From NCBI GenBank assembly GCA_036493835.1, contig DASXPD010000129.1, positions 7,466 to 71,465 of the forward strand: a stretch of 64,000 bases of DNA, given 5' to 3'. The position numbers were made by a program, and so were the translations under genes. The notes beneath the pieces are model-generated. The model searched no databases and had not been told where the DNA came from. It saw only the letters and a list, made by a program, of their open reading frames with translations. Of this stretch, positions 38,959 through 60,567 are shown in pieces. Source of the stretch: Candidatus Acidiferrum sp. (lineage in GTDB: Bacteria; Acidobacteriota; Terriglobia; Acidiferrales; UBA7541). Numbering within the stretch: position 1 is the stretch's first letter; each line of letters begins with the position of its first letter.

Positions 38959-39198
38959 TCAGCCTTCGACGCATTTCGCGCAGGCAAGTTCTGCGTCGAT
39001 GCGCGACGCGCGGCCTTCCGGCGTCGTCATCCACGGACGACTCTGCCAGGGCGGATCGTGCCGCACATGCTGCGAATGGCCGCATTCGAGATCGGCGACC
39101 CAATCGCCGCCATCGTCTTGATGGAATCCGACGATTTTGCGATTTGGCCGCGCTGGCGTTGCGGATTTACTCAATTTTGATGCGGGTTTCGGTTCCAT
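38959..39198 (-). CDS. DUF3565 family small protein
   Basis: IVGFHQD..DWVADLECGHSQHVRHDPPW..RPW...CAKC. Confidence 0.85.
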   Translation of the reverse strand: MEPKPASKLSKSATPARPNRKIVGFHQDDGGDWVADLECGHSQHVRHDPPWQSRPWMTTPEGRASRIDAELACAKCVEG

Positions 39199-39332
39199 TT
39201 AGTGGAAAGGTTGACTACAGTATCTTACGTCAAATCCCAGCGACCCACCTTCAAGATCGGGCTGGGCGTAAGCACGATTTCAAACTTTTCAGACAGCGGA
39301 TCGACCGTCGAATCCCGCTCGGAGGATCACTA

Positions 39333-40943
39333 GTGAACGTCCCCAAAAATTTTGTTCTGGCGTGCGGACTTGCCGCGGCATTGGTTTCTGCCGCCGCAGT
39401 CGCGCCACGAGCGCAAGCCTTTCCCGCCACGCCGGGCAGCGACCCGCAGACGGCGACGACTTCGCGTTCGCTGAAAGCGCTGGATTATCGGCGCGCCGGA
39501 AAATCGGTGGATATTTATTTTGTCGCCACCGATCAAGGATCGGGCGCGTCGGGCTCGGCGAAAGTCGCGACGAAGTCCAATCGCATCGAGATCGACTCGA
39601 AGTTCACCGGGCTGCCGGATTCGTCGAAGTTCGGCCTCGAATATCTCACGTACGTACTCTGGGCGATTTCGCCGCAGGGGCGCGCGGTGAATCTCGGCGA
39701 GTTGGTGAGCAAGAACGGCAACGCGCAGCTCAAGGCCAGCGTGGATATGCAAACGTTCGGCATGATTGTAACCGCCGAGCCGTATTACGCCGTCGCGCAG
39801 CCAAGCGACGAAGTCGTGCTGGAAAATGCGCTTCCCGAGAAAATGTTGAATCGCGTCGAGAATATCGACGCGAAGTACACGCTGATCAGCCGCGGCAGCT
39901 ATTCGCAGTCGAACACGCCGATCGAGAACGCGATTTTTGGCGTCGATCGCAAAGCACCGCTCGAGTTGTTCGAAGCGCGGAACTCGGTGCGCATCGCGCG
40001 AAACGCGCACGCCGACACCTACGCGGCATCGACATTTACGAAAGCGACGGACCAGCTGCAACAGGCGGAAACCGCGTACCAGAATCGCAAAGACAAGAAG
40101 CTCGTCATCGCGGCGGCACGCAACGCGATTGATCGCGCGGAAGAAGCGCGCGTGATTGCGATCCAGAAAAAGACGGAAGAAGACGCACAACACGCGGCGG
40201 AAGCCGAGCGACAGGCTGCTGCGGCGCGCCAGGCGAAGGCGGAGGCCGACGCGGCTGCGCAGGCTGCGGCTCGTGCGCAGGCCGACGCAGAACGCCAGGC
40301 GGCGGATCAAGCTCGTTCGGAAGCCGAAAAGGCGAAAGCACAAGCTAACGCAGCAGCGGCAGCGGCATTGGCGCAGCAAAAGGAAGCCGAAGCGGCGCGC
40401 GCGGCGGCTCTGGCTCAGCAGCAGCAAGCGGAAGCGGCGGCAGCACAAGCGAACCAAGCCGCGGCGCAGGCCGAGAAAGACAAAGCGGACATGCGCGCGC
40501 AACTTTTGGCCCAGCTCAACGCCGTTTTGCAGACGCAAGACACGGCGCGCGGCTTGATCGTAAATATGTCGGACGTTTTGTTCGACACCGGCAAATACAC
40601 ATTGAAGCCGCCGACGCAGGTGAAGCTGGCGAAAATTTCCGGCATCTTGCTCTCGCATCCGGGATTGACGATGCAGATCGAAGGTCACACCGACAGTGTC
40701 GGCAGCGATGAAATGAATCAGCGGCTTTCGGAACAGCGCGCTGACGCGGTGCGCGACTTCCTTGCGTCGCAAGGCGTTGCCGCCTCGTCGATGACCGCGA
40801 AGGGTTTCGGCAAGACCGATCCGATTGCGAGCAACGACACGGCGGAAGGCCGGCAAAAGAATCGCCGCGTCGAACTCGTCGTGAACGGCGCCGCGATCGG
40901 CAAAGCTGCTCCCGGAGCGCCGGCTGAAGCTCAACCCCAGTGA
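39333..40943 (+). CDS. OmpA family protein with Ala/Gln-rich coiled coil
   Basis: DVLFDTGK, IEGHTDSVG, LSEQRA, NRRVELVV; GTG 39333 after GGAGG. Confidence 0.92.
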   Translation: MNVPKNFVLACGLAAALVSAAAVAPRAQAFPATPGSDPQTATTSRSLKALDYRRAGKSVDIYFVATDQGSGASGSAKVATKSNRIEIDSKFTGLPDSSKFGLEYLTYVLWAISPQGRAVNLGELVSKNGNAQLKASVDMQTFGMIVTAEPYYAVAQPSDEVVLENALPEKMLNRVENIDAKYTLISRGSYSQSNTPIENAIFGVDRKAPLELFEARNSVRIARNAHADTYAASTFTKATDQLQQAETAYQNRKDKKLVIAAARNAIDRAEEARVIAIQKKTEEDAQHAAEAERQAAAARQAKAEADAAAQAAARAQADAERQAADQARSEAEKAKAQANAAAAAALAQQKEAEAARAAALAQQQQAEAAAAQANQAAAQAEKDKADMRAQLLAQLNAVLQTQDTARGLIVNMSDVLFDTGKYTLKPPTQVKLAKISGILLSHPGLTMQIEGHTDSVGSDEMNQRLSEQRADAVRDFLASQGVAASSMTAKGFGKTDPIASNDTAEGRQKNRRVELVVNGAAIGKAAPGAPAEAQPQ

Positions 40944-41164
40944 GGACGTAGCCGATCATCGGCCGTCGTCGGCCACAACAATTGAATAGTCGGAAATTCG
41001 AGGCGCGCAACGATCTTTGATCGGCGCGCCTCGAGTCATTTGGGACGCGCAAATAGCCATAAACATTGAATTATTCTTAGGAATAACCAGCAACCATTCC
41101 GCCGCCGCATCCGTCTAAGGTGCTAGAATGGGTGTCTGCGAAGTCTTCGGGATTTAACTTTTTA

Positions 41165-41470
41165 ATGCAACGTTTCTCACTAACCCGGTTCTTCACCGCA
41201 AAGCTCACGCGCCAAGCGCTCGCGATTCTCGGCTGCCTGGTGCTTCTCTATGTAGTGTCGGGCGTTGCGTTTTTGCACCATCACTCCAAGGGACCCGAGA
41301 CGACTTGCCACGTTTGCCAGGTGCTTCACGCGCCCGCTCTCGCCTTTTCTCCGCATGACTTGATTCCGGCAGCGCACCAGGTTGCGCGCTACAGCTCGAC
41401 GCTTGAGAGTTTCAACGCAGAGAATTTCGTTGCATCACACCGCACGCCCCGCGCCCCTCCTGTAGCGTAA
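41165..41470 (+). CDS. DUF2946/CruR-like uORF (TM, HHH, CxxC, C-terminal RAPP)
   Basis: LAILGCLVLLYVVSGVAFL-HHH...CHVC...RTPRAPPVA-stop directly upstream of a TonB receptor. Confidence 0.8.
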   Translation: MQRFSLTRFFTAKLTRQALAILGCLVLLYVVSGVAFLHHHSKGPETTCHVCQVLHAPALAFSPHDLIPAAHQVARYSSTLESFNAENFVASHRTPRAPPVA

Positions 41471-41642
41471 TCCATTCTCCTGAATCGTTAATGAAGTTCG
41501 CGCCATCTGCGCTCGACCTGCATTTGCATCCATTGCATTTCTGAGCGCCACGCGCATCCGCTGATTTTCCAGCGGCTCTATTCACTCATCCGCACCGTCG
41601 CTACGCGCGACATTCGTCCCTCTCGATGGGACAGGAGAAAAA

Positions 41643-44279
41643 ATGCCACGGAATTTCTGCAGCTTTCTGCATTTGCATCGGAACAAATCTGTCTGGACGC
41701 GGATTTCGCTTTTAGTGGCCGCAGTGTTGCTTCTGGCGGCGTCGAGTTTCGCGCAGGGAAATTCGGGATCGATCGACGGTGTCGTGAAAGATCCGTCCGG
41801 CTCCTCCATCGCGGGCGCGACGGTCGAAATCACTTACGCCGTCAGCGGTTTTCATCGCGAAACGACCACCGGAACCGATGGCGCTTTTCGCTTCACAAAC
41901 ATCCCATTCAATCCGTATCACATGGTTGTGACCGCGACGGGTTTCAATTCGTTCACGCAGGATGTCGAGGTGCGCTCGACAGTTCCGACCAGCGTGCAGA
42001 TTTCGCTGAAGCTCGGCACGGCGAACACGAGTGTCACCGTCGAAGCGAACGGCGGCGACCTCGTCGAAAACGATTCGACGTTTCACACCGACGTCGATCA
42101 GGGAATCATGGACCGACTCCCGCTCGAAAGCGCGTCCTCTTCCGTGACTTCGCTGGTGACGCTGGTTTCGCCCGGCGTTGCCGCTGACTCCAACGGCAAC
42201 ATGCACGGACTCGGCGACCACGCGCAGAACTCCTTCTCGGTCGACGGCCAGCCGATCACCGATCAAACCAGCAAAGTTTTCTCGAACCAGATTCCGTCGG
42301 ACTCGATTCAATCTCTTGAAGTGATTTCCGGCGCGCCACCAGCCGAATTTGGCGACAAGACGAGTCTCGTCATTAAAGTGACGACAAAGTCGGGCCTCGG
42401 AGTCACCAAGCCTACCGGCAGCATCACGACGTCATACGGCAGCTTTGGCACGTCGAACGTCGCCTTCGACCTGGCCTACGGCAACGAAAAGTGGGGAAAT
42501 TTTATTTCAGCCAGCGGACTGAACAGCGGCCGTTTCCTCGATCCGCCGGAATTTCAGCCCATTCACGACAAGGGCAACGAAGGAAATATTTTTGATCGCG
42601 TCGATTACCAGATCTCGCAGAAAGATACGATTCACGGAAATTTCCAGTACACGCGCTCGTGGTTTCAGACACCGAACACGTTCGACAATCTCAACGTGCT
42701 CGATCCAACCGGCGCAAACATTGGCGAAACCGATCAGCGCTCGAAAATCGGAACCTTCAACATCGCGCCGACATGGACGCGCCTGATGGGACCAAATGCG
42801 GTCTTCACGCTCGGCGCTTACGTTCGCCAGGATCAATACAACTATTACCCGAGCAACGATCTCTTCGCCGATCTCGGCCCGATCAACTCCGAAACCATCT
42901 CGCAAAGCCGCCGCCTGACCAACGCGGGCCTGCACTCCGACTATTCGTGGGTGAAAGGCATTCACAACGTCAAAGCCGGCATCACGTATCAGCAAACGTA
43001 TCTCAACGAAAACGACAGCTTCGGCATCATCGATCCGACGGTTCTTCCGTCGACGCTCGATGCGGCTGGCAATCCGTGCTTCAACACCGGCACCGGCATG
43101 GCCGCGCCGGGAACGCCGTGCGCGACACTGCTTCCCATCGACCTGACGCGCGGCGGAAGCCTCTTCGGTTTCCGCGGCAGCACCGACGTCAAAGAACTTT
43201 CGATGTATGTGCAGGACACGATCACGAAAGGCGCGTGGTCGTTCAATCTCGGCATTCGCGGCGATCTTTACGATGGCCTCTCGACCGCGCGTCAGGCTGA
43301 GCCGCGCGTCGGTATCGCGTACAACATCAAGCCGACCAACACCGTGCTGCGCGTTTCGTACGCGCGCACGCTCGAGACTCCATTCAACGAAAATCTCATC
43401 ATCGCGACGACCGGTTGCAACGTGCCGGTGATCGCTGCGCTGATTCCGTGCGTGCCGGCAAATTCTCCCGCGGGTTATCGCAACGAGTTTCACGCCGGCT
43501 TGCAGCAGGCCTTCGGTAAACATCTTGTGATCGACGGCGAGTACATCTGGAAATACACGCACAACGCGTATGACTTCAGCGTGCTCGGCAATACGCCGAT
43601 CACGTTTCCGATCGACTGGCACAATTCCAAAATTCCAGGATTCCTGCTACGCGCCAGCGTGCCCAACTGGCACGGCTTCAGCGCGCTCGTCGTGATGTCG
43701 AGCGTTGCCGCGCGTTATTTCCCACCACAGACCGGCGGACTCGGCGTGACCGTCGGGCAAAGCGGCGGCGTCTTCCGCATCGACCACGACGAAAAATTCA
43801 ACCAGACCACGCACCTGCAATATCAACCGCTCAAGCGCGGCCCTTGGGTCGGCTTCAACTGGCGCTATGACAGCGGCCTCGTCGCCGGCGCGGTGACCGA
43901 CTACGCCACCGCGTTGACCTTCGACGCCGACCAGCAAGCCGCGATCGGATTGTTCTGCGGCAACACTTTTGCCACGCCGACGAGCCCGATTTTGAGCTGC
44001 CCCGCCGGCACAAATCGCGGCGCCACGCGCGTTAACATTCCTGCCGACGGCACCGAGAACGACGACAAGAATCCGCCGCGTATCGCTCCGCGCAATCTTT
44101 TCGACTTGGCCGTCGGCCAGGACAACCTGTTCCGCGGCGACCGCTACAAGTGGAGCCTGCGCTTCACCGTCGTCAACCTGACCAACAAGGAATCGCTATA
44201 CAACTTCCTCTCAACGTTCAGCGGCACCCACTTCGTCAGCCCACGCGCCGAATCCGTCGAACTCGGCTTCCACTTCTAG
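41643..44279 (+). CDS. TonB-dependent outer membrane receptor
   Basis: Signal peptide, carboxypeptidase-regulatory-like N-domain, plug (SVDGQPITDQ, PAEFGDK), beta-barrel, terminal F. Confidence 0.93.
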   Translation: MPRNFCSFLHLHRNKSVWTRISLLVAAVLLLAASSFAQGNSGSIDGVVKDPSGSSIAGATVEITYAVSGFHRETTTGTDGAFRFTNIPFNPYHMVVTATGFNSFTQDVEVRSTVPTSVQISLKLGTANTSVTVEANGGDLVENDSTFHTDVDQGIMDRLPLESASSSVTSLVTLVSPGVAADSNGNMHGLGDHAQNSFSVDGQPITDQTSKVFSNQIPSDSIQSLEVISGAPPAEFGDKTSLVIKVTTKSGLGVTKPTGSITTSYGSFGTSNVAFDLAYGNEKWGNFISASGLNSGRFLDPPEFQPIHDKGNEGNIFDRVDYQISQKDTIHGNFQYTRSWFQTPNTFDNLNVLDPTGANIGETDQRSKIGTFNIAPTWTRLMGPNAVFTLGAYVRQDQYNYYPSNDLFADLGPINSETISQSRRLTNAGLHSDYSWVKGIHNVKAGITYQQTYLNENDSFGIIDPTVLPSTLDAAGNPCFNTGTGMAAPGTPCATLLPIDLTRGGSLFGFRGSTDVKELSMYVQDTITKGAWSFNLGIRGDLYDGLSTARQAEPRVGIAYNIKPTNTVLRVSYARTLETPFNENLIIATTGCNVPVIAALIPCVPANSPAGYRNEFHAGLQQAFGKHLVIDGEYIWKYTHNAYDFSVLGNTPITFPIDWHNSKIPGFLLRASVPNWHGFSALVVMSSVAARYFPPQTGGLGVTVGQSGGVFRIDHDEKFNQTTHLQYQPLKRGPWVGFNWRYDSGLVAGAVTDYATALTFDADQQAAIGLFCGNTFATPTSPILSCPAGTNRGATRVNIPADGTENDDKNPPRIAPRNLFDLAVGQDNLFRGDRYKWSLRFTVVNLTNKESLYNFLSTFSGTHFVSPRAESVELGFHF

Positions 44280-44308: not shown

Positions 44309-44355
44309 GCCGCGAGACAGAATTCCTCAACGGGGTTTTGTTCTCGCGGCTTTTT
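44309..44355 (+). terminator. Intrinsic terminator after the TonB receptor
   Basis: GCCGCGAGA...TCTCGCGGC followed by TTTTT. Confidence 0.7.
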
Positions 44356-44547
44356 CGCGTCGATTCGCTTGCTTTTCCAACCAAACTCGGCCGTCTTTGC
44401 ACGCGCTCTCACAATGTTATTGATTTCGTATATTGGCGTTGACTTGACTCCGTTTCGTCAATATAAAGCAGCGCAGAGAGCACGCCTAACGCCGTATTCG
44501 CAAGAAATGATTGCGAGCTGATCGACGGAGCGTCGAAGGAGTTCCAC

Positions 44548-47358
44548 GTGTCCACATTTCAACAAGTGCAGGCGGAAGAGAAACAGGCCGTGCGGGCACC
44601 TGCGGCTGCCAGTGTGCTTAGCGCACGCTCGGCCACCGCCGAAGCCACCCAGGAACAATCCTACGGCTTAGCTTTTTCGGGAGGCGGAATCCGCAGCGCA
44701 ACGTTCAATCTCGGCATTCTCCAGGGACTCGCGCAGGCCAAGTTACTTCCGCATATGAAGTTCATCTCGACGGTTTCCGGAGGCGGATACATCGGTGGCT
44801 GGCTGGTGAGTTGGATCAAACGCGCCCCTCGCGGATTGATGGAAGTGCAGGAAAAGTTGGGCGACTACGAAAATCATCGAGACGACGATGGTGGCATCGC
44901 AGAACCCCGCCAGGTTAATTTTCTGCGCGACTACAGCAACTACATGACACCCCGGAAAGGTTTGGTCGGCGCCGACACATGGACGGGCATCGCTACGTAC
45001 TTCCGAAACGTTCTGCTGAATCAATGCATCTTGATTCCAGTTCTCGCCGCCTTGGTTCTCTTGCCATGGTTGCTCGGTTCCGTCGCAATTCGGCTGCGAT
45101 GGATAGGGCATCACCATCATGGCGTGTGGATTGCCGTGATCGCTGCGTTCTCCCTTCTACTCCTGTCGATGTTCATGGCGTCGCGCTACTGCGCCTATGC
45201 GGCGATCACAAAGCAAGCTCACACCGCCACAGCAACGCACGACACGCAACATGGCGCTAGCCAGGCACGCGTTCTATGGTTCGTCGGAGTTCCACTTTTT
45301 GTCTGTGCCGTATTTGCCGCGCTTACGTTTTGGCTCTGGCCCGCCGCGCAAGACGAGCCGTACTGGCGTTGGGCAGCCGTTGGGAGCCTGGTCTACGGCG
45401 TCTGCCACCTGATCGGACTGCCTGGACGAATCTCGGTCCTTCGCTCTGTTCAAGAGCAAAACAAAGTAACCGTCGCGCAACAGCTTGGAATTCCACTGAC
45501 AGCCGCTATTTCCGGCGCCGTTGGAGGACTATTCCTGAAGGTCTGCCATCAAGCAATCACCAACTGGAACTCTTGGGGCTCGAGTCAGGGAAGCGCGTGG
45601 TACGTAATTGCGTGGGGCCCACCGATTCTTGTCGTCGCGTTCCTCTTGGTCGGCACGCTGCACATCGGACTTCTCAAGCTGATCATTGGTCCCGAAGAAC
45701 AGGAATGGTGGGGACGCTTGGGCGGATTGCTGATGCTGGGAGTGCTTGCGTGGGTCGCAATTTTTGGCCTGGCGATCTTCGCGCCATGGGTCGCGGAAAC
45801 GGAAAGCCCTTGGGTGAAGACGAAAGCCGGTCTGCTCCTCGGCTGGATCGCGACTACGATTTTCGGTCTTCTCTCGGGTAAGAGCGGGCGCACATCCGGC
45901 GGCGCAGGCGCACAGGTCTCGGGCGATTCGGCAAACAGTTCTACGATGGAGTTGATTGGAGCCGTGGCGCCGTACGTTTTCATTCTCGGCATGCTGATCC
46001 TGCTCTCCATAGGCATTCACGCGCTAGTGATTTTGCACAGCGGGTATTCAACGACCATCGAAAATTATTGGGAGAAAGTGAGAGCGATACCGCCGGCGTG
46101 GCCTCTCATTGCCATGTTCATCTTGGCCGCGATCGCGGCCGTCTTGGCTCTCAGGGTCGACGTGAATATTTTCTCGATGAACCTTCTGTATCGAAACCGG
46201 CTCATCCGCTGTTACCTCGGCGCCAGCAGAAACGTCGGAGAGCGCCAGCCCAATCGCTTCACGGGATTCGATCCCACCGATGATCTGTTGCTGACGGAGT
46301 TCGACGGCACCACCGCTCAAACCGAATATCCGGATTTGCCCGCGTACATTGGTCCGTATCCGATCATTTGTGCCGCCCTCAACGTGACGCACGGCGAGCG
46401 CCTGGCGTGGCAGGAACGCAAAGCGGAATCCTTTGTCTTCACGCCGAAATTCTGCGGCTACGAATATCCAGAAATGAAGTACGAGCCCAATCCGCCGGCC
46501 GAAGGGACTTATCGTGCGACGGACGAATATGCCTATCCGCAAAATCCGACAAGTGCTTTGCATCTTGAGGCGGGCGGCGTACATCTCGGCACCGCCATCT
46601 CGATTTCTGGCGCGGCCGCGTCACCCAACATGGGTTTTCACACATCGCCGCCTCTCGCTTTTCTGATGACTCTCTTTGACGTTCGTCTGGGATGGTGGCT
46701 GCCCAATTCGCGATACGACAACAACCAGCTTTCCAGAAATTATACGGAAGGTGGTCCGCCGTGGTCGCTGTTGTACCTGCTGAAGGAGCTGCTCGCTTCG
46801 ACGACCGATGAGTCGAAGTACATCTACCTTTCGGATGGGGGACATTTTGAAAATCTCGCAATCTACGAACTCGTTCGGCGTCGATGCAGATACATCATTG
46901 CGTCCGATGCCGACGCTGACTTCGGTATGGCATTTGGAGACTTGGGCAACGCCATCCGCAAATGTCGCAGCGACTTCGGAGTGGAAATCACCATCGATCC
47001 AACGCCGGTGCAATTGCCGCCGGGTGGCTTTGCCCGGGCTCACGGCGTCGTCGGAACGATTCGCTACCCTAACACTCCGACAGAAGAGGGGTTTTTCGGC
47101 GAGATCCTTTACATCAAGCCCACGATAACTCCTGACACGCCGCGAGACGTTCTCGCGTACCGCTCAAGCCACACAGAATTTCCAGATCAGTCCACCGCTG
47201 ACCAATGGTTTGACGAATCGCAGTTCGAGAGTTACCGGCGACTGGGCCTGTACACAATGCAGATGCTCGCAGGGATGCTCGGCAACCCTTCCCCTGATCC
47301 GCCCCCTTCCGTTGCAGAACTTTTTGCAAGGGTGCGCGCGAACGCGCAGCGCACATAA
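44548..47358 (+). CDS. Large membrane-embedded patatin/cPLA2-like phospholipase
   Basis: GLAFSGGGIRSA, STVSGGGY (nucleophile Ser), LSDGGHFEN (Asp); about 10 hydrophobic segments between catalytic halves. Confidence 0.88.
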   Translation: MSTFQQVQAEEKQAVRAPAAASVLSARSATAEATQEQSYGLAFSGGGIRSATFNLGILQGLAQAKLLPHMKFISTVSGGGYIGGWLVSWIKRAPRGLMEVQEKLGDYENHRDDDGGIAEPRQVNFLRDYSNYMTPRKGLVGADTWTGIATYFRNVLLNQCILIPVLAALVLLPWLLGSVAIRLRWIGHHHHGVWIAVIAAFSLLLLSMFMASRYCAYAAITKQAHTATATHDTQHGASQARVLWFVGVPLFVCAVFAALTFWLWPAAQDEPYWRWAAVGSLVYGVCHLIGLPGRISVLRSVQEQNKVTVAQQLGIPLTAAISGAVGGLFLKVCHQAITNWNSWGSSQGSAWYVIAWGPPILVVAFLLVGTLHIGLLKLIIGPEEQEWWGRLGGLLMLGVLAWVAIFGLAIFAPWVAETESPWVKTKAGLLLGWIATTIFGLLSGKSGRTSGGAGAQVSGDSANSSTMELIGAVAPYVFILGMLILLSIGIHALVILHSGYSTTIENYWEKVRAIPPAWPLIAMFILAAIAAVLALRVDVNIFSMNLLYRNRLIRCYLGASRNVGERQPNRFTGFDPTDDLLLTEFDGTTAQTEYPDLPAYIGPYPIICAALNVTHGERLAWQERKAESFVFTPKFCGYEYPEMKYEPNPPAEGTYRATDEYAYPQNPTSALHLEAGGVHLGTAISISGAAASPNMGFHTSPPLAFLMTLFDVRLGWWLPNSRYDNNQLSRNYTEGGPPWSLLYLLKELLASTTDESKYIYLSDGGHFENLAIYELVRRRCRYIIASDADADFGMAFGDLGNAIRKCRSDFGVEITIDPTPVQLPPGGFARAHGVVGTIRYPNTPTEEGFFGEILYIKPTITPDTPRDVLAYRSSHTEFPDQSTADQWFDESQFESYRRLGLYTMQMLAGMLGNPSPDPPPSVAELFARVRANAQRT

Positions 47359-52315: not shown

Positions 52316-53467
52316 ATGAGCGCACCTGCAACCGCACGCGAGGATCACCAAGCGATGGAATTCAGCGTATCGAAGTCGGCGCTGCTGAACGAACTTAGCA
52401 CCACGCAGGGTGTCGTCGAACGCAAAACGACGATCCCGATTCTGTCGAACTTGCTGGTCGAAGCGAAGGGCGACAAGCTCAACATCACCGCCACCGACCT
52501 CGAGCTCAGCATTCGCACTTCGTGCGATGCCAAGGTGAAAAAAGAAGGCGCCGGCACGATCCCGGCGAAAAAACTTCTAGAACTCGTTCGCCTGCTTCCC
52601 GAAGGCGAAATCAAATTCAAGCTACTCGAAAATCACTGGGTCGAAATCGTCAGCGACAAAAAGAAATATAAGCTCGTCGGTATGGCGAAAGAGAATTTCC
52701 CAGCTCTCCCGGCGATGCCGCACACCCTGGTAAAGATCTCCGCTCCCGTGATGGAGAGCCTCATCAGCAAGACGAAATTTGCGATCTCGATGGAAGAGTC
52801 GCGCTACACGCTCAACGGCGGCCTGCTGATCCTCAAGCCCGACACGCTCGCCATGGTCGCCACCGACGGCCATCGCCTCGCGCTCGCCGAAACCGATCAG
52901 AAACTCGCCGGACTCAACGGCGAAATGAAAGTGCTCATTCCGAAAAAGGCGATGGACGAAGTCTCCAAGCTCGCCAGCTCGGCCGACTCCGACGCGCAGA
53001 TCGAATTTGCCAAGGACGAAAGCCACCTGTTCTTCCAGGTTGGCCATCGCCTGCTGATTTCGCGGATTCTCACCGGCCAATTCCCGAACTATGAAGCCGT
53101 ACTGCCGCGCGATAACAACAAGACCGTCACCATCGAGCGCGGAGAGCTCTGCGACGCAGTGAAGCGCGTCTCGCAGCTTGCCGACCAGCGCTCACACGCC
53201 GTAAAGCTCGCCGTCTCTCGCGACGGCATCGAAATCTCCGCGTCGAGCCCCGAATACGGCGAAGCGAAAGAAAATATCGAGAAGGACTACAAAGGCGATC
53301 CGATTTCGATTGGCTTCAACTCCAGCTACATGCTCGATTTCCTCGCCGCCGCGGCCGATGGCCCAATCAGCATCGAGCTGAAAGACGAACAGTCCGCCGG
53401 CCAGATGCGCCCACTCGCCGATGAAAGCTATCGCTACCGCTACATCATCATGCCGATGCGCATCTGA
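52316..53467 (+). CDS. dnaN: DNA polymerase III beta clamp
   Basis: TTIPILSN, ATDLE, VATDGHRL, GQFPNY, IGFN, YIIMPMRI; alternative start 52355. Confidence 0.99.
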   Translation: MSAPATAREDHQAMEFSVSKSALLNELSTTQGVVERKTTIPILSNLLVEAKGDKLNITATDLELSIRTSCDAKVKKEGAGTIPAKKLLELVRLLPEGEIKFKLLENHWVEIVSDKKKYKLVGMAKENFPALPAMPHTLVKISAPVMESLISKTKFAISMEESRYTLNGGLLILKPDTLAMVATDGHRLALAETDQKLAGLNGEMKVLIPKKAMDEVSKLASSADSDAQIEFAKDESHLFFQVGHRLLISRILTGQFPNYEAVLPRDNNKTVTIERGELCDAVKRVSQLADQRSHAVKLAVSRDGIEISASSPEYGEAKENIEKDYKGDPISIGFNSSYMLDFLAAAADGPISIELKDEQSAGQMRPLADESYRYRYIIMPMRI

Positions 53468-53504
53468 CGGTTGATTTTCCTCGTGTTCACAATATAATTG
53501 ATAT

Positions 53505-54050
53505 GTGAATAGCAAACTAAGTATTCTTGGCCCGTCGACACCACTCGTGGCAACCAAGATTCGCATCATCCGCGACGTTAGGGTGATACTCGACGCCGAC
53601 ATTGCGAACCTCTACGGCATCACGACCTTCAATTTGAACAAAGCAGTCGCGCGAAACAGAGATCGGTTTCCAAGAGACTTCATGTTTCGGCTGACTGCGA
53701 AAGAGCGTGGAAACTTGATATTCCAATCTGGAATATCAAGTTCGCGTCGTTGGGGAGGCGCCCGCCACTCACCCTACGCATTCACCGAACAAGGTGTGTC
53801 AATGCTTTCGAGCGTTCTTCGCAGTGAGCGTGCAGTCAACGTGAATATCGCAATTATGCGTGCCTTCGTAGAGCTGCGGCGAGCGTTGGCTACGCACGAA
53901 GAGCTCCGAAAGAAGATTGAGCAAATGGAGCGGCGCTACGACGCGAAATTCGAGGTAGTATTTAGCGCAATCAAACAGATGCTTGAACCGCCGCCGAGGA
54001 CGAAATCGACAATTGGTTTTCATCCTGCCACGAAGCAACTCAAACCTTGA
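53505..54050 (+). CDS. ORF6N domain DNA-binding protein
   Basis: RDVRVILDADIANLYG, VARNRDRFPRDFMFRLT, PYAFTEQGVSMLSSVLRS, NIAIMRAFV, coiled-coil tail. Confidence 0.92.
   Translation: MNSKLSILGPSTPLVATKIRIIRDVRVILDADIANLYGITTFNLNKAVARNRDRFPRDFMFRLTAKERGNLIFQSGISSSRRWGGARHSPYAFTEQGVSMLSSVLRSERAVNVNIAIMRAFVELRRALATHEELRKKIEQMERRYDAKFEVVFSAIKQMLEPPPRTKSTIGFHPATKQLKP
53712..53742. repeat. Perfect palindrome inside ORF6N
   Basis: AACTTGATATTCCA-atc-TGGAATATCAAGTT. Confidence 0.95.
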
Positions 54051-54093
54051 GTGAGGTCAAATTTCCCGGCCGGTTTGCGGATTCACTTCGATC

Positions 54094-54124
54094 AACTTGA
54101 TATTCCAGTTTGGAATATCAAGTT
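54094..54124. repeat. Second copy of the same palindrome, intergenic
   Basis: AACTTGATATTCCA-gtt-TGGAATATCAAGTT. Confidence 0.95.
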
Positions 54125-54597
54125 CACTTATTTCGCCAAATTCACGCATATTTTTCGCAGGCTTCAGTACGCAAAGGAATATTCCAAGTAATTGAAAAAT
54201 AAGGCGTTAGCCGTTAGCCGACATGTTCGATTTGTTTGGGATTTCTGCCTAAATCAGTTAGAATGCCTGAGTAGCTTGTTTGCTGTTCGTTCCTCCTGTT
54301 TTTCGGTCCGCCTCGCGCAATCGAGGCACGTCCGCCAAGCCAGCGAAGTTCAGTTTTCAGCCCTGCGCCAGGGGCCGGAACATCGCGCTTGGAAATGAAA
54401 CCTTTCGAGCGCAAACACGTTCGTTAGGTTGACAAGTCTTCGCCACGTCTCGCTGCGCGAGATGGGATGGAGCAGGGGCCCTACGAGTTCCCGACGCATG
54501 CGTTCGCGCCTGCATTCGGAGCCAAAGGGTTAAGGCGACGCACGGAGAAGTCCGCACTCAGCCTTTCCTCGCTTCAAAGAATTTGAATCAGTCATAG

Positions 54598-57132
<2,535 letters not shown>

Positions 57133-57148
57133 TCGCGCCGAGCCATTG

Positions 57149-57394
57149 ATGATCTATCAGCTTGGATGGACGACGTTGCCAGGACTGCGCGGATTGAGTT
57201 GTAGCGATTTTCGCGCAACGCCGACGGATGCGCCCGACATGAATCGCGGCGTAGCGGTTGAGTTTGCAAGCGAAGCAGAACGTGACGAGTTTTTGCGGCG
57301 AGCGGAAGAACATTTCGCCGCGAGACGTTTCACCAACGCGGCCGACGCCTTTGACACAGTGAAGGCGTACGTAATCGAACGAGTTGCGGAGTAA
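57149..57394 (+). CDS. Small hypothetical protein
   Basis: About 81-aa ORF right after gyrB with protein-like composition. Confidence 0.55.
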   Translation: MIYQLGWTTLPGLRGLSCSDFRATPTDAPDMNRGVAVEFASEAERDEFLRRAEEHFAARRFTNAADAFDTVKAYVIERVAE

Positions 57395-57402
57395 TCGACG
57401 TT

Positions 57403-57630
57403 TTAGAGAAGTTCGAGGAATTCCTCGAGCTTCAAACCGCACTGTTTGAGGATGTCGGACAGCGTGCCTTTTGCTAATTCGGAATGGAGCGGAACTACGG
57501 TTTTGAAGACAGTGTCGCCAATCCTTCGTTCCAGGGAGACGTGGCTTCCTTTTTGGCGCAATTCGACAAAGCCCGTACGCTTCAGGGCGCGGATGACGCG
57601 CTCGCCAGAAACGCTTGGTAGCTTTGGCAT
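57403..57630 (-). CDS. hicA: HicA family mRNA interferase toxin
   Basis: MPKLPSVSG, GFVELRQKGSHV, VVPLHSELAKGTL..ILKQ. Confidence 0.9.
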   Translation of the reverse strand: MPKLPSVSGERVIRALKRTGFVELRQKGSHVSLERRIGDTVFKTVVPLHSELAKGTLSDILKQCGLKLEEFLELL

Positions 57631-57631
57631 G

Positions 57632-57847
57632 TCAACGGGAGACTTCGACGGTTGTCCAGAACGATTCAGGTTCGGTGCTGGTGCCTTCGGGGATGCCCCA
57701 CGTTTCAAGGTAGAGCTCGATGGCCTCGCTCAAATTGCCGCGAGCGCTCTCGACGTCCTTGCCTTGAGACGTGACGCTCAGCTCAGGGCAGCGAGCCACG
57801 TACCAGCTGTCTTCCTTGGTTATCAAGGCGGAGAAGCGGTAAGTCAT
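57632..57847 (-). CDS. hicB: HicB family antitoxin (short, no DNA-binding tail)
   Basis: YVARCPELSVTSQGKDVESARGNLSEAIELYLE. Confidence 0.9.
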   Translation of the reverse strand: MTYRFSALITKEDSWYVARCPELSVTSQGKDVESARGNLSEAIELYLETWGIPEGTSTEPESFWTTVEVSR

Positions 57848-57882
57848 ACAACGATGCTAACCAATATCCTGGCAGCAGGCAA
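57848..57882 (-). promoter_or_regulatory. Promoter predicting a leaderless hicB mRNA
   Basis: TTGCCT-17-TAGCAT-6-ATG on the minus strand. Confidence 0.6.
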
Positions 57883-57903
57883 TACGGAGTAGACAGAGGA
57901 CAA

Positions 57904-60567
57904 ATGGCAGACGAGAAGAATACATCGATACTATTGCCGATCGATATTGAAGCCGAGATGCGGAAATCGTATCTCGACTATGCGATGAGCGTGATCATCG
58001 CGCGCGCTCTACCCGACGTGCGCGACGGCCTGAAGCCGGTGCAGCGCCGCATCCTGGTCGCGATGAACGATCTCGGCCTCGCGTCGAATCGCGGCTACCG
58101 CAAGTGCGCCAAGATCTGCGGCGACACTTCCGGCAACTATCACCCGCACGGTGAAGCCGTCATCTACCCCGCGCTCGTGCGCCTCGCTCAAGAATTCAAC
58201 CTCCGCTACATGTTGATCGACGGCCAGGGAAACTTCGGCTCCGTCGATGGCGATCCACCGGCGGCCATGCGGTACACCGAAGCGCGCTTGGCGAAAATCA
58301 CCGAAGACATTCTCGCCGACCTCGAAAAAGACACCGTCGATTACATTCCGAACTTCGATCAGACCCGCGAAGAACCCACGGTGCTGCCATCGCGCATCCC
58401 GAACCTTCTGGTCAACGGCGCGAGCGGCATCGCGGTCGGCATGGCGACGAACATCCCGCCGCACAATTTGCGCGAAATCGTGGACGCCGCGATTTTGCTG
58501 ATCGAAAAGCCAGACACGCCGTTGAAAGAAGTGATGAAGCTCGTGCCCGGCCCGGATTTCCCGACGGGCGCGTACATCGCCGGCCGCGAAGGAATTGAAG
58601 CTGCCTACCGTACTGGTCGCGGCAGCTTTGTGATGCGCGCGAAGGCCGCGATCGAAGAAGTCGGCAAGGATCGCGAAAACATCGTCATCACCGAAATCCC
58701 GTACCAGGTAAACAAGGCGCGCCTCATCGAGCGCATCGCCGACCTGGTCCAGAATAAAAAACTCGAAGGCATCGCTGATGTTCGCGACGAGTCCTCGCGC
58801 GAAGGCATGCGCATCGTCATCGAAATCAAGCGCGGCGAAGAATCGCAGCTCATCCTCAACAATCTGTTCAAGCAGACGCAGATGCAGGAATCGTTCGGCA
58901 TGATTCTGCTCTCGATCGTCGCCGGTCAGCCGCGCGAACTCGGCTTGATCCCGATGATCAAGCTGTTCATCGATCACCGCATCGAAGTCGTTCGCCGGCG
59001 TTCCGCGTACGAATTGCGCAAGGCACGCGAGCGCGAACACATTTTGATCGGTTACCAGATCGCGCTCGATTATCTCGACGACGTGATCCGCATCATCCGC
59101 GGTTCATCGAGCCGCGCACAGGCACGTGAAAACTTGCTCGCGTTTTTCACCGAGCAAGACGTCACCATCACCGAGAACGGCAAGCCGAAGAAAGTCGCGG
59201 GCGTGAAGCTCGACGGCCGCAAATACAAAATCGGCCCGCTGGAAGGCGAAGCCGTCGCGGTTCGCGGCAATGTTGTTGGCCTGACGCCGGTGCAGGTCGA
59301 TGCGATCCTCGAATTGCAGTTGCATCGCCTGACGCAGCTCTCGGTCGACGAAATTCTCAAAGAATTGAAGTCGATCCGCGAAACGATCGCGGAACTCGAA
59401 GAAATCCTATCGAACGATCGCAAGCTCAAAGCCGTCATCACCGCCGAGCTGAAGGAAGTCCACAAAGCCTACGGCGATGATCGCCGCACGCAAATCGTCG
59501 ACAAGGTCGATGAAATCAAGCTGGAAGACCTGATCGCCGACACCGAAATGCTGATCACGGTCAGCCATGCCGGCTACATCAAGCGCACTGCGGCGGAAAC
59601 GTATCGCCACCAATCGCGCGGCGGCAAGGGACGTATCGGCGCGAAGACGAAGGAAGAAGACTTCGTCGAGCATCTCTTCATCGCGTCGGCGCACAGCTAT
59701 ATTTTGCTGTTCACGTCGAAGGGGCGCGTCTACTGGCTCAAGGTGTATGAGCTGCCCGAAGCCGCGGCCGCTACGCGTGGCAAATCGATCTCGAGTCTTG
59801 TGAAATTCTCCGAGGACGAAAAGCTCACCGCACTCGTCGCCGCGCGCAACCTCGAAGAAGATGGCCGCTTCGTCTTCATGGCGACCAAAAACGGCACGGT
59901 GAAAAAGTCAACGCTCAACGAATTCTCGAATCCGCGTTCATCGGGAATCATCGCTATTAACTTGGAAGCGAAAGATGAACTCATCGGCGCCAAGCTCACC
60001 GATGGAAAGAAGATGATTTTCCTCGCGAGCCACGAAGGTCAGGCGATCCTCTTCCGCGAAACAGAAGTGCGCCCGATGGGACGCAATGCCGGCGGCGTCA
60101 ACGGCATGGATCTCGACGAAACGGATCACGTCGTCAGCATGGACGCGGTGCAGCCCGATTTCGAGATCATCAAAAAGGAACACAAAAAAGAAACGCAAAA
60201 CCTTGAAGAACTCGAGAACGAGGACATCAAGGATTCGCTCACCACGCTGATGCTGACCGTCGCCGAAAAGGGCTACGGCAAGCGCACACCGCTGGCGGAA
60301 TATCGCATCACGTCGCGCGGCGGCAAGGGCGTGGTCAACATGAAGACGACGGATCGCAACGGCTCGGTGATCGCGACGTTGCAAGTCACGGAAGAGTCGG
60401 ATGTGATGATCATTACGCACAACGGCAAAGTCATCCGCGTCCACGCCAACGAAATTCGCGAAGCGGGCCGCTCGACGCAGGGCGTGCGCTTACTGCGGCT
60501 CGACGACGACGATCACGTAGCCGCGGCTGCGGTACTCCAGGAAGAAAGCGAAGAAGAAAAGAAGTAG
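57904..60567 (+). CDS. gyrA: DNA gyrase subunit A
   Basis: [38 protein letters not shown], GyrA-box-like QSRGGKG. Confidence 0.99.

What the first reader, a model, noticed from the sequence alone, without database searches (positions are those of the whole stretch)
41165..44279. CruR/DUF2946-like RAPP arrest-peptide uORF gating a TonB-dependent receptor
Seen: a 101-aa ORF with one TM segment, HHH, CHVC and a terminal RAPP two codons before the stop. A C/T-rich 172-bp spacer follows, with a GTCCC/GGGAC hairpin abutting the receptor SD. Established: RAPP/RGPP motifs stall ribosomes (ApdA/ApdP), and Bordetella CruR (DUF2946, CxxC + RAPP) controls a downstream TonB receptor in response to copper. 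Inference: an acidobacterial metal-sensing translational or Rho-coupled switch whose metal and cargo are unknown; the extra His cluster could shift selectivity.
Basis: partly seen in the sequence, partly recalled or inferred. Interest (0 to 1): 0.72.

Follow-up and report, generated by a model that had tools for sequence, protein, structure and literature searches.

The report
Metal-sensing arrest-peptide leader before TonB receptor
A 101-codon leader gene ending in the ribosome-stalling motif RAPP sits in front of an outer-membrane import gene in an acidobacterial genome; by comparison it is a distant relative of the copper-sensing CruR/CutF leader peptides, so it is a new member of a known kind whose metal is still unknown.

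Summary
In detail: a 101-aa ORF (41165-41470) has a TM helix, HHH, CHVC and RAPP two codons before the stop. A 172-nt C/T-rich spacer and a GTCCC/GGGAC hairpin abutting the SD of an 878-aa TonB-dependent receptor (41643-44279) follow.

The peptide belongs to a family of at least 85 clusters, almost all Acidobacteriota. C48, C51, R96, P98 and P99 are invariant. The CxxC-RAPP gap is 44 residues in 61/61 loci (CruR: 45). RAPP codons vary synonymously, so the peptide is under selection. In 64 of 65 loci, all but one cut 149 nt after the stop, a homologous receptor follows after 104-182 nt.

Pfam DUF2946 is matched only below threshold (12.7 bits; 40/66 members, same register), so this is a remote CruR/CutF-like branch. 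The leader 3' end plus spacer is C>G in all 62 distinct loci, as at the CruR Rho terminator. The spacer also holds two covarying hairpins, and the receptor SD is predicted paired. Modelling a stalled ribosome does not free it.

In 37 related loci a second, divergent RAPP leader heads a CusA/CzcA-type efflux operon.

The parts
41090..41129 (+). Conserved promoter-like block upstream of the leader: GCAAC (41090-41094), a 17-nt spacer, CGTCTAAG (41112-41119), then TGCTAGAAT (41121-41129, which reads as an extended -10, TGnTAnnnT).
   Evidence: MAFFT of the upstream regions of 61 loci. GCAWC-N16-18-CGWC is present in 37 of 61 and TGnTAnnnT in 51 of 61, at fixed positions. The same GCAAC-N17-CGTC motif precedes the divergent efflux leader in 31 of 34 related loci. 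Which sigma factor reads it is not established. The simple sigma-70 scan found nothing here.
41165..41470 (+). Leader ORF (uORF), 101 aa: MQRF...HRTPRAPPVA*
   Evidence: Selection acts on the peptide: residues are conserved while codons vary synonymously.
41216..41275 (+). Hydrophobic segment (aa 18-37), either a signal peptide or a signal anchor. It is preceded by 4 basic residues.
   Evidence: The family has an uncharged run of median 20 residues that ends exactly 10 residues before CxxC in most members. AlphaFold2 models a helix at 7-36. Whether it is cleaved could not be tested.
41276..41335 (+). Putative metal-binding cluster H38-H39-H40 ... C48-H-V-C51 ... H55-A-P57
   Evidence: C48 and C51 are invariant. 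H38, H55 and P57 are at least 90% conserved across 66 sequences at 21-81% identity. H40 is invariant in the close family.
41450..41461 (+). RAPP arrest motif (CGC GCC CCT CCT). By analogy, the stall would have Pro98 (41456-41458) in the P site and Pro99 (41459-41461) in the A site.
   Evidence: R96, P98 and P99 are invariant, and A97 is A or G. There are always 44 residues after CxxC and 2 before the stop. The stall geometry comes from PMC10951233 and PMC12992588. Both prolines prefer the rare codon CCT.
41410..41620 (+). C>G region covering the leader 3' end and most of the spacer (a candidate rut/Rho-loading region)
   Evidence: C-G is +10 to +19 points in 78-nt windows and +17.1 over the region. 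It is positive in all 62 distinct related loci, with a mean of +11.8.
41475..41481 (+). Anti-SD segment TTCTCCT, 5 nt after the stop codon. It is complementary to AGGAGAA (41633-41639).
   Evidence: In the MFE and the partition function of the window, the SD is unpaired with probability about 0.02 and pairs mostly with this segment. TCTCC is common at this position in the family, but covariation is weak (56% paired in register).
41509..41548 (+). Conserved hairpin 1 (GCGCTC ... GAGCGC)
   Evidence: RNAalifold and pair counts: 93% of cells paired, with compensatory changes at 3 of 5 pairs.
41558..41575 (+). Conserved hairpin 2 (CCGCTG-loop-CAGCGG)
   Evidence: 96% of cells paired. The closing pair is C-G in 30 sequences and U-A in 15. 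No U-run follows, so it is not an intrinsic terminator.
41576..41585 (+). Conserved motif CTCTATTCAC (family consensus CYCTATCCACA)
   Evidence: Near-invariant in alignment A3. In the clade with a 125-nt spacer it pairs with GGATGGAG, which is the SD. In the window's own clade that pairing is not possible, so its conservation is not fully explained.
41616..41632 (+). Hairpin 3 (GTCCC-TCTCGAT-GGGAC), abutting the SD
   Evidence: Read directly from the sequence. Equivalent CCC..GGG hairpins occur in 55 of 60 loci against 13% of shuffles. The same GTCCC..GGGAC hairpin precedes the SD of the efflux operon behind the second leader in related loci.
41633..41639 (+). Shine-Dalgarno region of the receptor gene (AGGAGAA), 3 nt before the ATG at 41643
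41643..44279 (+). TonB-dependent receptor, 878 aa, with a signal peptide (…SSFA/QG), a CarboxypepD_reg domain and a Plug domain
   Evidence: Pfam: PF13620 at 4.4e-17, and PF07715 at 29.8 bits against a cut-off of 23.9. Orthologues at 62-93% identity follow the leader in the related loci. There was no match to a solved structure by sequence and no specific NCBIfam subfamily.
44331..44356 (+). Terminator-like hairpin plus T-run after the receptor gene; the likely end of a two-gene operon

Best explanation
The 101-codon ORF is a regulatory leader peptide of the CruR/CutF (DUF2946-like) kind, and it forms a two-gene operon with the TonB-dependent receptor.

Proposed mechanism:
1. While the leader is translated, its N-terminal hydrophobic segment targets the nascent chain to the membrane.
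2. [quoted passage not shown] The arrest falls 2 codons before the stop.
3. At that moment the His/Cys cluster (H38, H40, C48, C51, H55) lies a fixed 44-47 residues from the peptidyl-transferase centre. That puts it just outside the exit tunnel or translocon.
4. Binding of a transition metal to the cluster changes how long the arrest lasts.
5. The length of the arrest decides whether the receptor gene is expressed.

The most likely read-out is the CruR one. The arrested ribosome covers the C-rich 3' end of the leader and keeps Rho off the transcript, so RNA polymerase reads on into the receptor gene. Metal-induced release of the arrest exposes the C>G leader and spacer, and transcription terminates before the receptor. 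Import is therefore shut off when the metal is plentiful.

The receptor SD is additionally held in a paired state by C/U-rich anti-SD segments. This would keep untranslated receptor mRNA open to Rho.

What is shown here: the anatomy, its conservation, the synteny, the fixed spacing, the C>G skew and the RNA hairpins.
What is inferred: the stalling itself, metal binding, which metal, the polarity of the response, and Rho dependence.
For: Architecture and conservation:
- C48, C51, R96, P98 and P99 are invariant in 66 sequences at 21-81% identity.
- The CxxC-RAPP gap is 44 residues in 61 of 61 loci and 43-45 residues in 84 of 84 proteins. CruR has 45, conserved within 1-2 residues, and changing the spacing impairs regulation (PMC9426467).
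- RAPP codons vary synonymously, with 5, 4, 3 and 4 codons for R, A, P and P.

Family link:
- 40 of 66 members match PF11162 below threshold. The match is always the C-terminal ~62 residues against profile positions 54-117 of 117.

Synteny:
- In 64 of 65 loci a homologous receptor follows after 104-182 nt. The remaining locus is cut at a contig end 149 nt after the leader stop. This includes loci whose outer flanks differ.

Rho-type features:
- C exceeds G in the leader 3' end plus spacer in 62 of 62 distinct loci.
- No intrinsic terminator lies between the two genes.

Literature:
- RAPP and RGPP arrest ribosomes in many sequence contexts.
- CruR arrests in a PURE system, with Pro3 and Pro4 of the motif in the P and A sites.
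- RAPP uORFs upstream of TonB-dependent receptors are widespread in Gram-negative phyla (PMC12992588; PMC10951233).

Metal context:
- In 37 related loci a second leader of the same design heads a CusA/CzcA-type heavy-metal efflux operon, back to back with this module.
Against: - No experiment exists for this family.
- The Pfam gathering score is not reached (12.7 bits here and at most about 20-22 in the family, against 23.7). Homology to CruR therefore rests on motif, spacing and sub-threshold hits.
- The spacer carries two stable, covarying hairpins. Classical rut regions are unstructured.
- The C>G skew is only in the top 7% of tiles of the window.
- The window's own locus has no metal gene next to it. 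Its neighbours are an OmpA-family gene and a patatin-like gene.
- The receptor matches no copper-specific (OprC-type) or other substrate-specific model.
- In CruR the signal peptide is dispensable, so the 'ruler through the translocon' idea need not apply.
Confidence: 0.68

Rival explanations
1. A translational switch of the CutF/SecM type. The receptor SD is locked in a helix, and the ribosome on the end of the leader melts that helix. Depending on geometry, the ribosome either arrests at RAPP or must reach the stop codon. Metal sets the arrest time, and so sets translation initiation of the receptor. Rho plays no part.
For: - The SD is predicted paired in almost all loci, with a mean unpaired probability of 0.10-0.15.
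- In the window, the whole spacer is closed by TTCTCCT (41475-41481) pairing with AGGAGAA (41633-41639).
- The RAPP proline codons are CCT in 50 of 61 and 35 of 61 loci, although CCT is the rarest Pro codon at 9-15%. This creates CCUCC, an anti-SD sequence that a stalled ribosome would cover.
- The second leader in related loci has a short 85-nt spacer of the same design, as in cutF-cutO (PMC9973294).
Against: - Constraining the footprint of a ribosome arrested at RAPP (P site -12 to +15) raises SD accessibility only from 0.10 to 0.14. The gain exceeds 0.2 in 5 of 62 loci. A terminating ribosome gives 0.18.
- The anti-SD segments are redundant, and most lie outside the footprint.
- Covariation for the long-range helices is weak (72% and 56% paired, few compensatory changes).
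- Spacers of 125-172 nt are longer than those thought compatible with direct melting (PMC9973294).
Confidence: 0.17
2. The small ORF encodes a stable membrane-anchored or periplasmic metal-binding protein, for example a chaperone or accessory factor of the receptor. It is simply co-transcribed, and RAPP is a structural or slow-translation feature with no regulatory role.
For: - The whole peptide is conserved, not only its C-terminus.
- It has a TM helix and a Cys2His2-3 cluster typical of metal sites.
- It is strictly co-located with the receptor.
Against: - RAPP/RGPP is among the most avoided tetrapeptides in bacterial proteomes. It is enriched near the C-terminus of small exported proteins that act as arrest peptides (PMC12992588).
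- The gap between CxxC and RAPP has an invariant length but poorly conserved, disordered sequence: pLDDT 54-57 and no insertions or deletions in 61 loci. This fits a ruler in a nascent chain better than a folded domain.
- The position of RAPP, 2 residues before the stop, is fixed.
- CruR and CutF are not detectable as stable proteins (PMC9426467, PMC9973294).
Confidence: 0.09
3. Control lies elsewhere: in the conserved promoter (an ECF-type or other metal-responsive sigma factor or regulator) and in the structured spacer RNA acting as a ligand-sensing or protein-binding leader. The uORF is incidental.
For: - A conserved promoter block is shared with the divergent efflux operon.
- Two covarying hairpins and a near-invariant CTATCCACA motif lie in the spacer.
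- A MarR gene follows the receptor in 39 loci.
Against: - No Rfam family matches.
- The hairpins are small, with no multi-helix junction typical of a ligand pocket.
- This reading does not explain peptide-level selection on RAPP or the fixed 44-residue ruler.
- Transcriptional control and leader-peptide control are not mutually exclusive.
Confidence: 0.06

Closest known systems
CruR (Bp2923) with BfrG of Bordetella pertussis (Pfam DUF2946; PMC9426467)
   Same: - A small first gene with a hydrophobic N-terminus, an invariant CxxC, and RAPP a few residues before the stop.
- A CxxC-RAPP gap of 44 residues here against 45 in CruR.
- A long spacer (172 nt here, 162 nt in CruR) with C>G.
- A TonB-dependent transporter gene downstream.
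- A peptide predicted to be largely unstructured.
   Different: - The phylum is Acidobacteriota. It is absent from their Table S1.
- The sequence scores below the Pfam threshold.
- There is an extra conserved His set (H38, H40, H55).
- The peptide is 101 aa, against 145 aa for CruR.
- The receptor is of the CarboxypepD_reg-Plug type, and no PepSY_TM gene follows.
- The spacer holds conserved hairpins and SD-occluding segments.
- The metal is unknown.
CutF with CutO of Rhodobacter capsulatus, and 'CutF-like' proteins (PMC9973294; bioRxiv 10.1101/2025.02.05.636593)
   Same: [quoted passage not shown]
- It has a Cys/His metal motif.
- The SD of the downstream gene is predicted to be shielded.
- The fixed distance from the motif to the arrest site is compatible with sensing across the translocon.
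   Different: - CutF has CxxxC and a PPP motif, a short spacer with a single stem-loop, and a detoxifying oxidase as its target. Copper induces the stall.
- Here the target is an importer and the spacer is long.
- Modelling does not show SD release by the stalled ribosome.
RAPP/RGPP uORFs upstream of TonB-dependent receptors, found in a survey of GTDB genomes (PMC12992588)
   Same: It belongs to the same class by definition: a small exported protein with a C-terminal RAPP, encoded upstream of a TonB-dependent receptor gene. The survey reports this class as universal in Gram-negative phyla.
   Different: The survey describes the class in bulk. It does not describe this family, its His/Cys signature, its 44-residue ruler, its spacer RNA, or its pairing with an efflux-operon leader.
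Sec/YidC monitoring arrest peptides with RAPP-like motifs (ApdA, ApdP, SecM; PMC7897499, PMC10951233)
   Same: A C-terminal R-A-P-P arrest module in an exported small protein that controls the next gene.
   Different: In those systems the downstream gene belongs to the protein-localisation machinery, and the arrest is released by the pulling force of export. They have no metal-binding motif.

Membership tests
Pfam PF11162 DUF2946 (CruR/CutF family) | HMM score at or above the gathering threshold (23.7 bits) | tested here: not met
   The window peptide scores 12.7 bits, E 0.23. Of 66 family members, 40 match at E<=1, with a best E of 2.8e-4. The sampled members score 10.6-19.8 bits. All matches are in the same register: the C-terminal ~62 residues against profile positions 54-117 of 117.
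Pfam PF11162 DUF2946 (CruR/CutF family) | Conserved CxxC motif | tested here: met
   CHVC is at aa 48-51. C48 and C51 are invariant in 66 sequences.
Pfam PF11162 DUF2946 (CruR/CutF family) | C-terminal RAPP a few residues before the stop | tested here: met
   RAPP is at aa 96-99, with 2 residues before the stop in 60 of 61 loci. R, P and P are invariant, and A is A or G.
Pfam PF11162 DUF2946 (CruR/CutF family) | Spacing between CxxC and RAPP conserved at about 45 residues (+/-1-2) | tested here: met
   The spacing is 44 residues in 61 of 61 loci, and 43-45 in 84 of 84 proteins. The reference value comes from PMC9426467.
Pfam PF11162 DUF2946 (CruR/CutF family) | N-terminal export signal | tested here: inconclusive
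   There are basic residues, then a ~20-residue uncharged run with small residues before the His cluster, and AlphaFold2 models a helix at 7-36. No signal-peptide predictor was available, so a cleavable signal cannot be told from a signal anchor.
Pfam PF11162 DUF2946 (CruR/CutF family) | First gene of an operon, a long spacer, then a TonB-dependent transporter or a copper-homeostasis gene | tested here: met
   A receptor follows in 64 of 65 loci, after 104-182 nt. The remaining locus ends 149 nt after the leader stop. A promoter-like block lies upstream and a terminator-like site lies after the receptor.
Pfam PF11162 DUF2946 (CruR/CutF family) | Ribosome arrest at RAPP, modulated by metal binding to the nascent chain | not testable with these tools
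   This needs in vitro translation or toeprinting, and reporters.
CruR-type output (Rho-dependent attenuation) | C>G bubble from the leader 3' end into the spacer | tested here: met
   The skew is +17 points over 41410-41620, and it is positive in 62 of 62 distinct loci.
CruR-type output (Rho-dependent attenuation) | Termination depends on Rho (bicyclomycin-sensitive, reproduced in vitro) | not testable with these tools
   This is an experiment. The conserved hairpins in the spacer are atypical for a rut site.
CutF-type output (stalled ribosome melts an SD-shielding stem) | SD of the downstream gene is sequestered | tested here: met
   The mean predicted unpaired probability is 0.10-0.15 across 62 loci, and 0.02 in the window. 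This is a thermodynamic prediction only.
CutF-type output (stalled ribosome melts an SD-shielding stem) | The shielding stem lies within reach of the arrested ribosome | tested here: not met
   Masking P site -12 to +15 changes SD accessibility from 0.10 to 0.14, with a gain above 0.2 in 5 of 62 loci. The window's anti-SD starts 19 nt 3' of the first P-site base.
Sec/YidC monitoring substrates (ApdA/ApdP/SecM) | Downstream gene encodes a Sec/YidC component | tested here: not met
   The downstream gene is a TonB-dependent receptor.
TonB-dependent receptor | Plug domain with an N-terminal signal peptide; an outer-membrane barrel | tested here: met
   PF07715 Plug scores 29.8 bits against a cut-off of 23.9, and CarboxypepD_reg scores 62.6 bits. 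The signal peptide can be read directly from the sequence. No barrel model (PF00593) was listed, which is common for this divergent acidobacterial class.
OprC/NosA-type copper TonB receptors | Match to the subfamily model, or to the copper-site residues | tested here: not met
   No NCBIfam subfamily reached its cut-off. Only weak generic hits of at most 33 bits were found. There was no PDB sequence match.

The most novel reading that the evidence does not exclude
The family is one half of a two-sided metal rheostat. In its main clade, two back-to-back arrest-peptide leaders share one promoter motif. One gates a TonB-dependent importer and the other gates a CusA/CzcA-type efflux pump. Both read the same periplasmic metal with opposite polarity. 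The invariant 44-residue CxxC-RAPP ruler is the distance from the peptidyl-transferase centre to the outer face of the translocon, so sensing happens across the membrane on the nascent chain. With its His-rich Cys2His3 site and a Czc/Ncc-like partner, the metal sensed may be zinc, cobalt or nickel rather than copper. The window carries a copy of the import half that has moved away from its efflux partner.
Probability: 0.2. Interest if true: 0.75.

Novelty: new member of a known kind. Interest (0 to 1): 0.5.

Why it matters
Only two metal-sensing leader peptides, CruR and CutF, have been studied experimentally, and both come from Proteobacteria and both sense copper. This family extends the principle to Acidobacteriota, a dominant but poorly tractable soil phylum, and it has several useful properties:

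- Its anatomy is very regular: the TM segment ends 10 residues before CxxC, 44 residues then lead to RAPP, and 2 more to the stop. This makes the 'ruler' hypothesis directly testable by insertions and deletions.
- It has a richer His/Cys ligand set and no obligatory link to copper genes.
- In related genomes an importer leader and an exporter leader sit side by side. That gives a natural pair in which to ask how the same arrest module can produce opposite responses.

It also flags about 85 protein clusters that the Pfam threshold currently misses.

Tried and rejected
- **Reaching true DUF2946 members.** Two searches with family alignments in the search for homologous proteins, meant to reach bona fide DUF2946 proteins carrying precomputed Pfam labels, failed or timed out. 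No profile-profile comparison with true DUF2946 members could therefore be made. A tblastn of the peptide against 72,556 plasmids gave only a chance hit.
- **Receptor substrate.** The receptor has no sequence match in the PDB and no specific NCBIfam subfamily, so no cargo can be inferred. Conserved His and Asp residues in the plug were listed but not interpreted.
- **Known RNA families.** A permissive Rfam scan of 40900-41800 found nothing credible.
- **A single conserved SD-occluding helix.** Two candidates were tested on alignment A3: the post-stop TCTCC segment and the CTCTATCC motif. They were 56% and 72% paired, with few compensatory changes, so I rejected either as a universal helix. A stem enclosing the stop codon, seen in some MFE folds, is not conserved.
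- **SD unmasking by the arrested ribosome.** This was modelled and is not supported.
- **An ECF sigma or anti-sigma gene in the window.** None was found among the 17 ORFs scanned across, but the window was not scanned exhaustively.
- **The 149-aa ORF upstream of the leader in related loci.** I rejected it. Codon-position conservation points to the opposite strand, where the second RAPP leader lies.
- **A ZAS-type anti-sigma reading of H...CxxC.** I rejected it because the motif lies after the TM segment, not in an N-terminal cytoplasmic domain.

Full report
**1. The observation**

- An ATG at 41165 opens a 101-codon ORF that ends at TAA 41468-41470.
- The product has four basic residues and then a 20-residue uncharged segment (aa 18-37).
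- HHH follows at aa 38-40, CHVC at 48-51, His55-Ala-Pro57, a 44-residue stretch, and RAPP at 96-99. Val, Ala and the stop come after RAPP.
- The 172-nt spacer (41471-41642) is 33% C, 26% T and 21% G.
- GTCCC (41616-41620) and GGGAC (41628-41632) form a hairpin that ends one base before the SD AGGAG (41633-41637).
- The next gene (41643-44279) encodes an 878-aa protein. It has a signal peptide, a CarboxypepD_reg domain and a TonB-dependent-receptor Plug domain.
- A terminator-like site follows at 44331-44356, and none lies between the two genes.

**2. The ORF is a real, widespread and tightly constrained gene**

- A word-indexed search found 22 homologues of 47-92% identity. All are from metagenomes or acidobacterial MAGs.
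- A profile search of 1.84 billion representative proteins found 85 clusters at E<1e-3.
- A scan of one genome per species found it in 59 genomes. Nearly all are Acidobacteriota (Acidoferrum, Terriglobales, one Solibacter), with two Dormiibacterota MAGs and one Udaeobacter MAG.
- In 66 sequences that share 21-81% identity with the window peptide, C48, C51, R96, P98 and P99 are invariant. H38, H55, P57 and A97 are at least 90% conserved.
- The hydrophobic run ends 10 residues before CxxC in most members.
- The CxxC-RAPP gap is 44 residues in 61 of 61 distinct loci, and 43-45 in all 84 proteins that carry both motifs. RAPP is followed by exactly 2 residues in 60 of 61 loci.
- The four RAPP codons vary synonymously (5, 4, 3 and 4 codons), so the peptide is under selection, not only the RNA.
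- AlphaFold2 models a confident helix at 7-36 and a short helix at the CxxC. The rest is coil, with pLDDT 54-57 for residues 61-90. A segment of fixed length but loose sequence and no predicted fold is what a nascent-chain spacer would look like.

**3. Synteny**

- In 64 of 65 loci a homologous receptor follows the leader after 104-182 nt, with a mode near 125. Full-length copies are 62-93% identical to the window's receptor.
- The remaining locus (L040) is cut at a contig end 149 nt after the leader stop, so it cannot be scored.
- The outer flanks differ between clades, so the conserved unit is leader plus receptor.
- Part of the locus set was retrieved with patterns that include the RAPP end, which biases that motif. 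However, loci found through the CQxLHAPAL pattern, and the homologues from the independent searches, also keep RAPP.

**4. Relation to known families**

- Pfam DUF2946 (PF11162) is the family of CruR and CutF. The window peptide matches it at only 12.7 bits, against a cut-off of 23.7.
- 40 of 66 family members give sub-threshold hits. Each aligns its last ~62 residues to profile positions 54-117 of 117.
- CruR has CxxC and RAPP separated by 45 residues. That spacing is conserved within 1-2 residues in more than 2000 DUF2946 proteins, and changing it impairs regulation (PMC9426467). This family has 44.
- CruR also precedes a 162-nt C>G spacer and a TonB-dependent transporter gene.
- Acidobacteria are absent from the published DUF2946 table and are not mentioned in the CutF-like survey.
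- A later survey of GTDB genomes reported RAPP/RGPP uORFs upstream of TonB-dependent receptors as universal in Gram-negative phyla. It also showed that CruR arrests in a PURE system with the two Pro codons in the P and A sites (PMC12992588).

I therefore file this as a remote, previously unlisted branch of a known kind. It is not a formal Pfam member.

**5. The spacer RNA**

- C exceeds G from about 41410 to 41620 by 10-19 points. Within this window that is only in the top 7% of tiles, but the same region is C>G in all 62 distinct loci, with a mean of +11.8.
- An alignment of 48 spacers shows two hairpins with covariation. Hairpin 1 (window 41509-41548) is 93% paired. Hairpin 2 (41558-41575) is 96% paired, and its closing pair is C-G in 30 sequences and U-A in 15.
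- A near-invariant CYCTATCCACA motif follows (41576-41585).
- A short CCC...GGG hairpin abuts the SD in 55 of 60 loci, against 13% of shuffles.
- No Rfam family matches.
- The SD is predicted paired almost everywhere, with a mean unpaired probability of 0.10-0.15. The partner varies: the RAPP codons themselves (CCUCC), a TCTCC segment just after the stop, or the CTCTATCC motif.
- In the window, TTCTCCT (41475-41481) pairs with AGGAGAA (41633-41639) and closes the whole spacer.
- Covariation for these long-range helices is weak.
- Constraining the footprint of a ribosome arrested at RAPP barely frees the SD (0.10 to 0.14). A terminating ribosome does somewhat better (0.18 overall, and 0.39 in the window).

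A simple SecM/CutF-type melting model is therefore not supported in silico. The CruR-type Rho model fits the C>G skew, but it has to accommodate the conserved hairpins, which might act as pause sites. This step remains open.

**6. An unexpected codon bias**

- The two RAPP prolines use CCT in 50 of 61 and 35 of 61 loci.
- CCT is the rarest proline codon in these genomes: 12% in the receptor genes, 15% at other prolines of the same leaders, and 9% in the window's genes.
- The sequences are related, so the nominal P-values overstate the effect, but the bias is large.
- It could reflect an RNA role, because CCUCC is an anti-SD sequence. It could equally reflect a tRNA effect on the arrest. I could not separate the two.

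**7. Context in related genomes**

- In 37 of 65 loci a second ORF of the same design lies back to back with the leader. It is 91 aa and has a TM segment, FHFC, H-x-CxxC, then 42 residues, RAPP, two residues and the stop.
- It heads an operon for an outer-membrane efflux protein, a CzcB/NccB-like adaptor, and a CusA/CzcA-family heavy-metal RND pump. The pump's 323-aa fragment scores 243 bits against TIGR00914, and about 100 bits against multidrug pump models.
- The two leader families align profile to profile, with H...CxxC...RAPP in register (82% probability, E 1e-5).
- 9 of 14 of the second leaders also touch DUF2946 below threshold.
- Its 85-nt spacer has the same TTCTCC segments, the same GTCCC...GGGAC hairpin and a GAGGAG SD.
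- Both leaders are preceded by the same motif, GCAAC-N17-CGTC: 31 of 34 loci for the second leader and 37 of 61 for the first. It resembles ECF-type promoters, which from general knowledge carry AAC in the -35 and CGT in the -10. Sigma-70 readings are also possible: TGnTAnnnT in 51 of 61 loci for the first leader, and TTGACC-N17-TAAGCT for the second.
- A MarR gene follows the receptor in 39 loci.
- The window lacks the efflux partner. Its neighbours are an OmpA-family gene and a patatin-like gene, and no other CxxC...RAPP ORF occurs in the 64 kb.

This context supports a role in transition-metal homeostasis. It does not name the metal.

**8. Mechanism**

My best explanation is the following. 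Steps 1 and 5 are inferred from the anatomy shown here; steps 2 to 4 are inferred by analogy.

1. The nascent leader is targeted to the membrane by its N-terminal segment.
2. The ribosome arrests at RAPP.
3. At that moment the His/Cys cluster is 44-47 residues from the catalytic centre. That is roughly the length of the exit tunnel plus a translocon channel.
4. Metal binding changes the force or fold acting on the chain, and so changes the arrest time.
5. The arrest time sets receptor expression. Most probably the arrest shields the C-rich leader end from Rho, as in CruR. The paired SD keeps the receptor message untranslated and exposed when the arrest is short.

For an importer, the expected logic is repression when the metal is plentiful.

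I give 0.68 to the general model: a CruR/CutF-type arrest-peptide leader that controls the receptor in response to a metal. A purely translational switch gets 0.17, a stable accessory protein 0.09, and control by promoter and RNA alone 0.06.

**9. Novelty and score**

The kind is known: CruR from 2022, CutF from 2023, and a bulk survey from 2025. New here are:

- the acidobacterial family itself, which falls below the Pfam threshold;
- its strict geometry;
- its His-rich site;
- the conserved spacer hairpins;
- the CCT bias;
- the importer-exporter pair of leaders in related genomes.

I rate it a new member of a known kind, with interest 0.5. The pairing of leaders and the ruler idea give it some upside.

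Noticed in passing
L043:3581-3901 (-) and the equivalent position in 36 other related loci (not in the window): A second CxxC...RAPP leader ORF (91 aa; ...FLAAQFHFCAD...SHPCQLCS-42 aa-RAPPAL*) is transcribed divergently from the receptor leader. It heads an OEP / CzcB-like adaptor / CusA-CzcA-type RND efflux operon. An importer leader and an exporter leader therefore sit back to back.
   Followed up: yes
window 41090-41129; L043 about 3905-3950 (-): The conserved motif GCAAC-N17-CGTCT(A/T)AG lies upstream of both the receptor leader and the efflux leader. It is ECF-promoter-like. Extended -10 (TGnTAnnnT) and TTGACC-N17-TAAGCT readings overlap it. No sigma factor gene was identified.
   Followed up: partly
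window 41456-41461 and the same codons in 61 loci: The two prolines of RAPP are encoded by CCT in 82% and 57% of loci, although CCT is the rarest Pro codon (9-15%). This creates CCUCC, which is complementary to the downstream SD. The cause, RNA pairing or tRNA choice, is unresolved.
   Followed up: partly
window 41509-41585: Two covarying hairpins and a near-invariant CYCTATCCACA motif lie in the spacer, with no Rfam match. In the 125-nt-spacer clade the motif pairs with the SD, but in the window's clade it cannot. Its conservation there is unexplained.
   Followed up: partly
window 41071-41086: A perfect 16-nt palindrome, TTATTCTTAGGAATAA, lies just upstream of the promoter block. Its core ATTCTTAGGA is conserved in the window's clade of 10 loci. 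It may be an operator.
   Followed up: partly
window 41002-41030: A GC-rich inverted repeat (GGCGCGC...GCGCGCC) follows the OmpA-family gene and is conserved in the clade. It is probably the terminator that separates that gene from the leader operon, although it has no clear T-run.
   Followed up: no
related loci, for example L043:7267-7824 (+): A MarR-family regulator gene follows the receptor gene in 39 of 65 loci. It is absent from the window, where a patatin-like gene follows.
   Followed up: partly
window 52316-60567: dnaN (52316-53467), gyrB (54706-57132) and gyrA (57904-60567) lie close together, so the window is probably near the replication origin. An ORF6N-domain gene (53505-54050) sits between dnaN and gyrB.
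   Followed up: no
window 39144-40943 and 44548-47358: The upstream neighbour is a 599-aa OmpA-family protein with a long Ala/Gln/Glu-rich repeat region and a weak RskA_C-like N-terminal part. The downstream neighbour is a 936-aa multi-TM patatin-like protein containing an HHHH run. Neither is linked to the leader in other clades.
   Followed up: no
L058; proteins P0017 and P0022: A few copies of the leader are frameshifted: they lose CxxC or RAPP while the flanking sequence is kept. In L058 the receptor match also stops early. These are either decaying loci or assembly errors.
   Followed up: no
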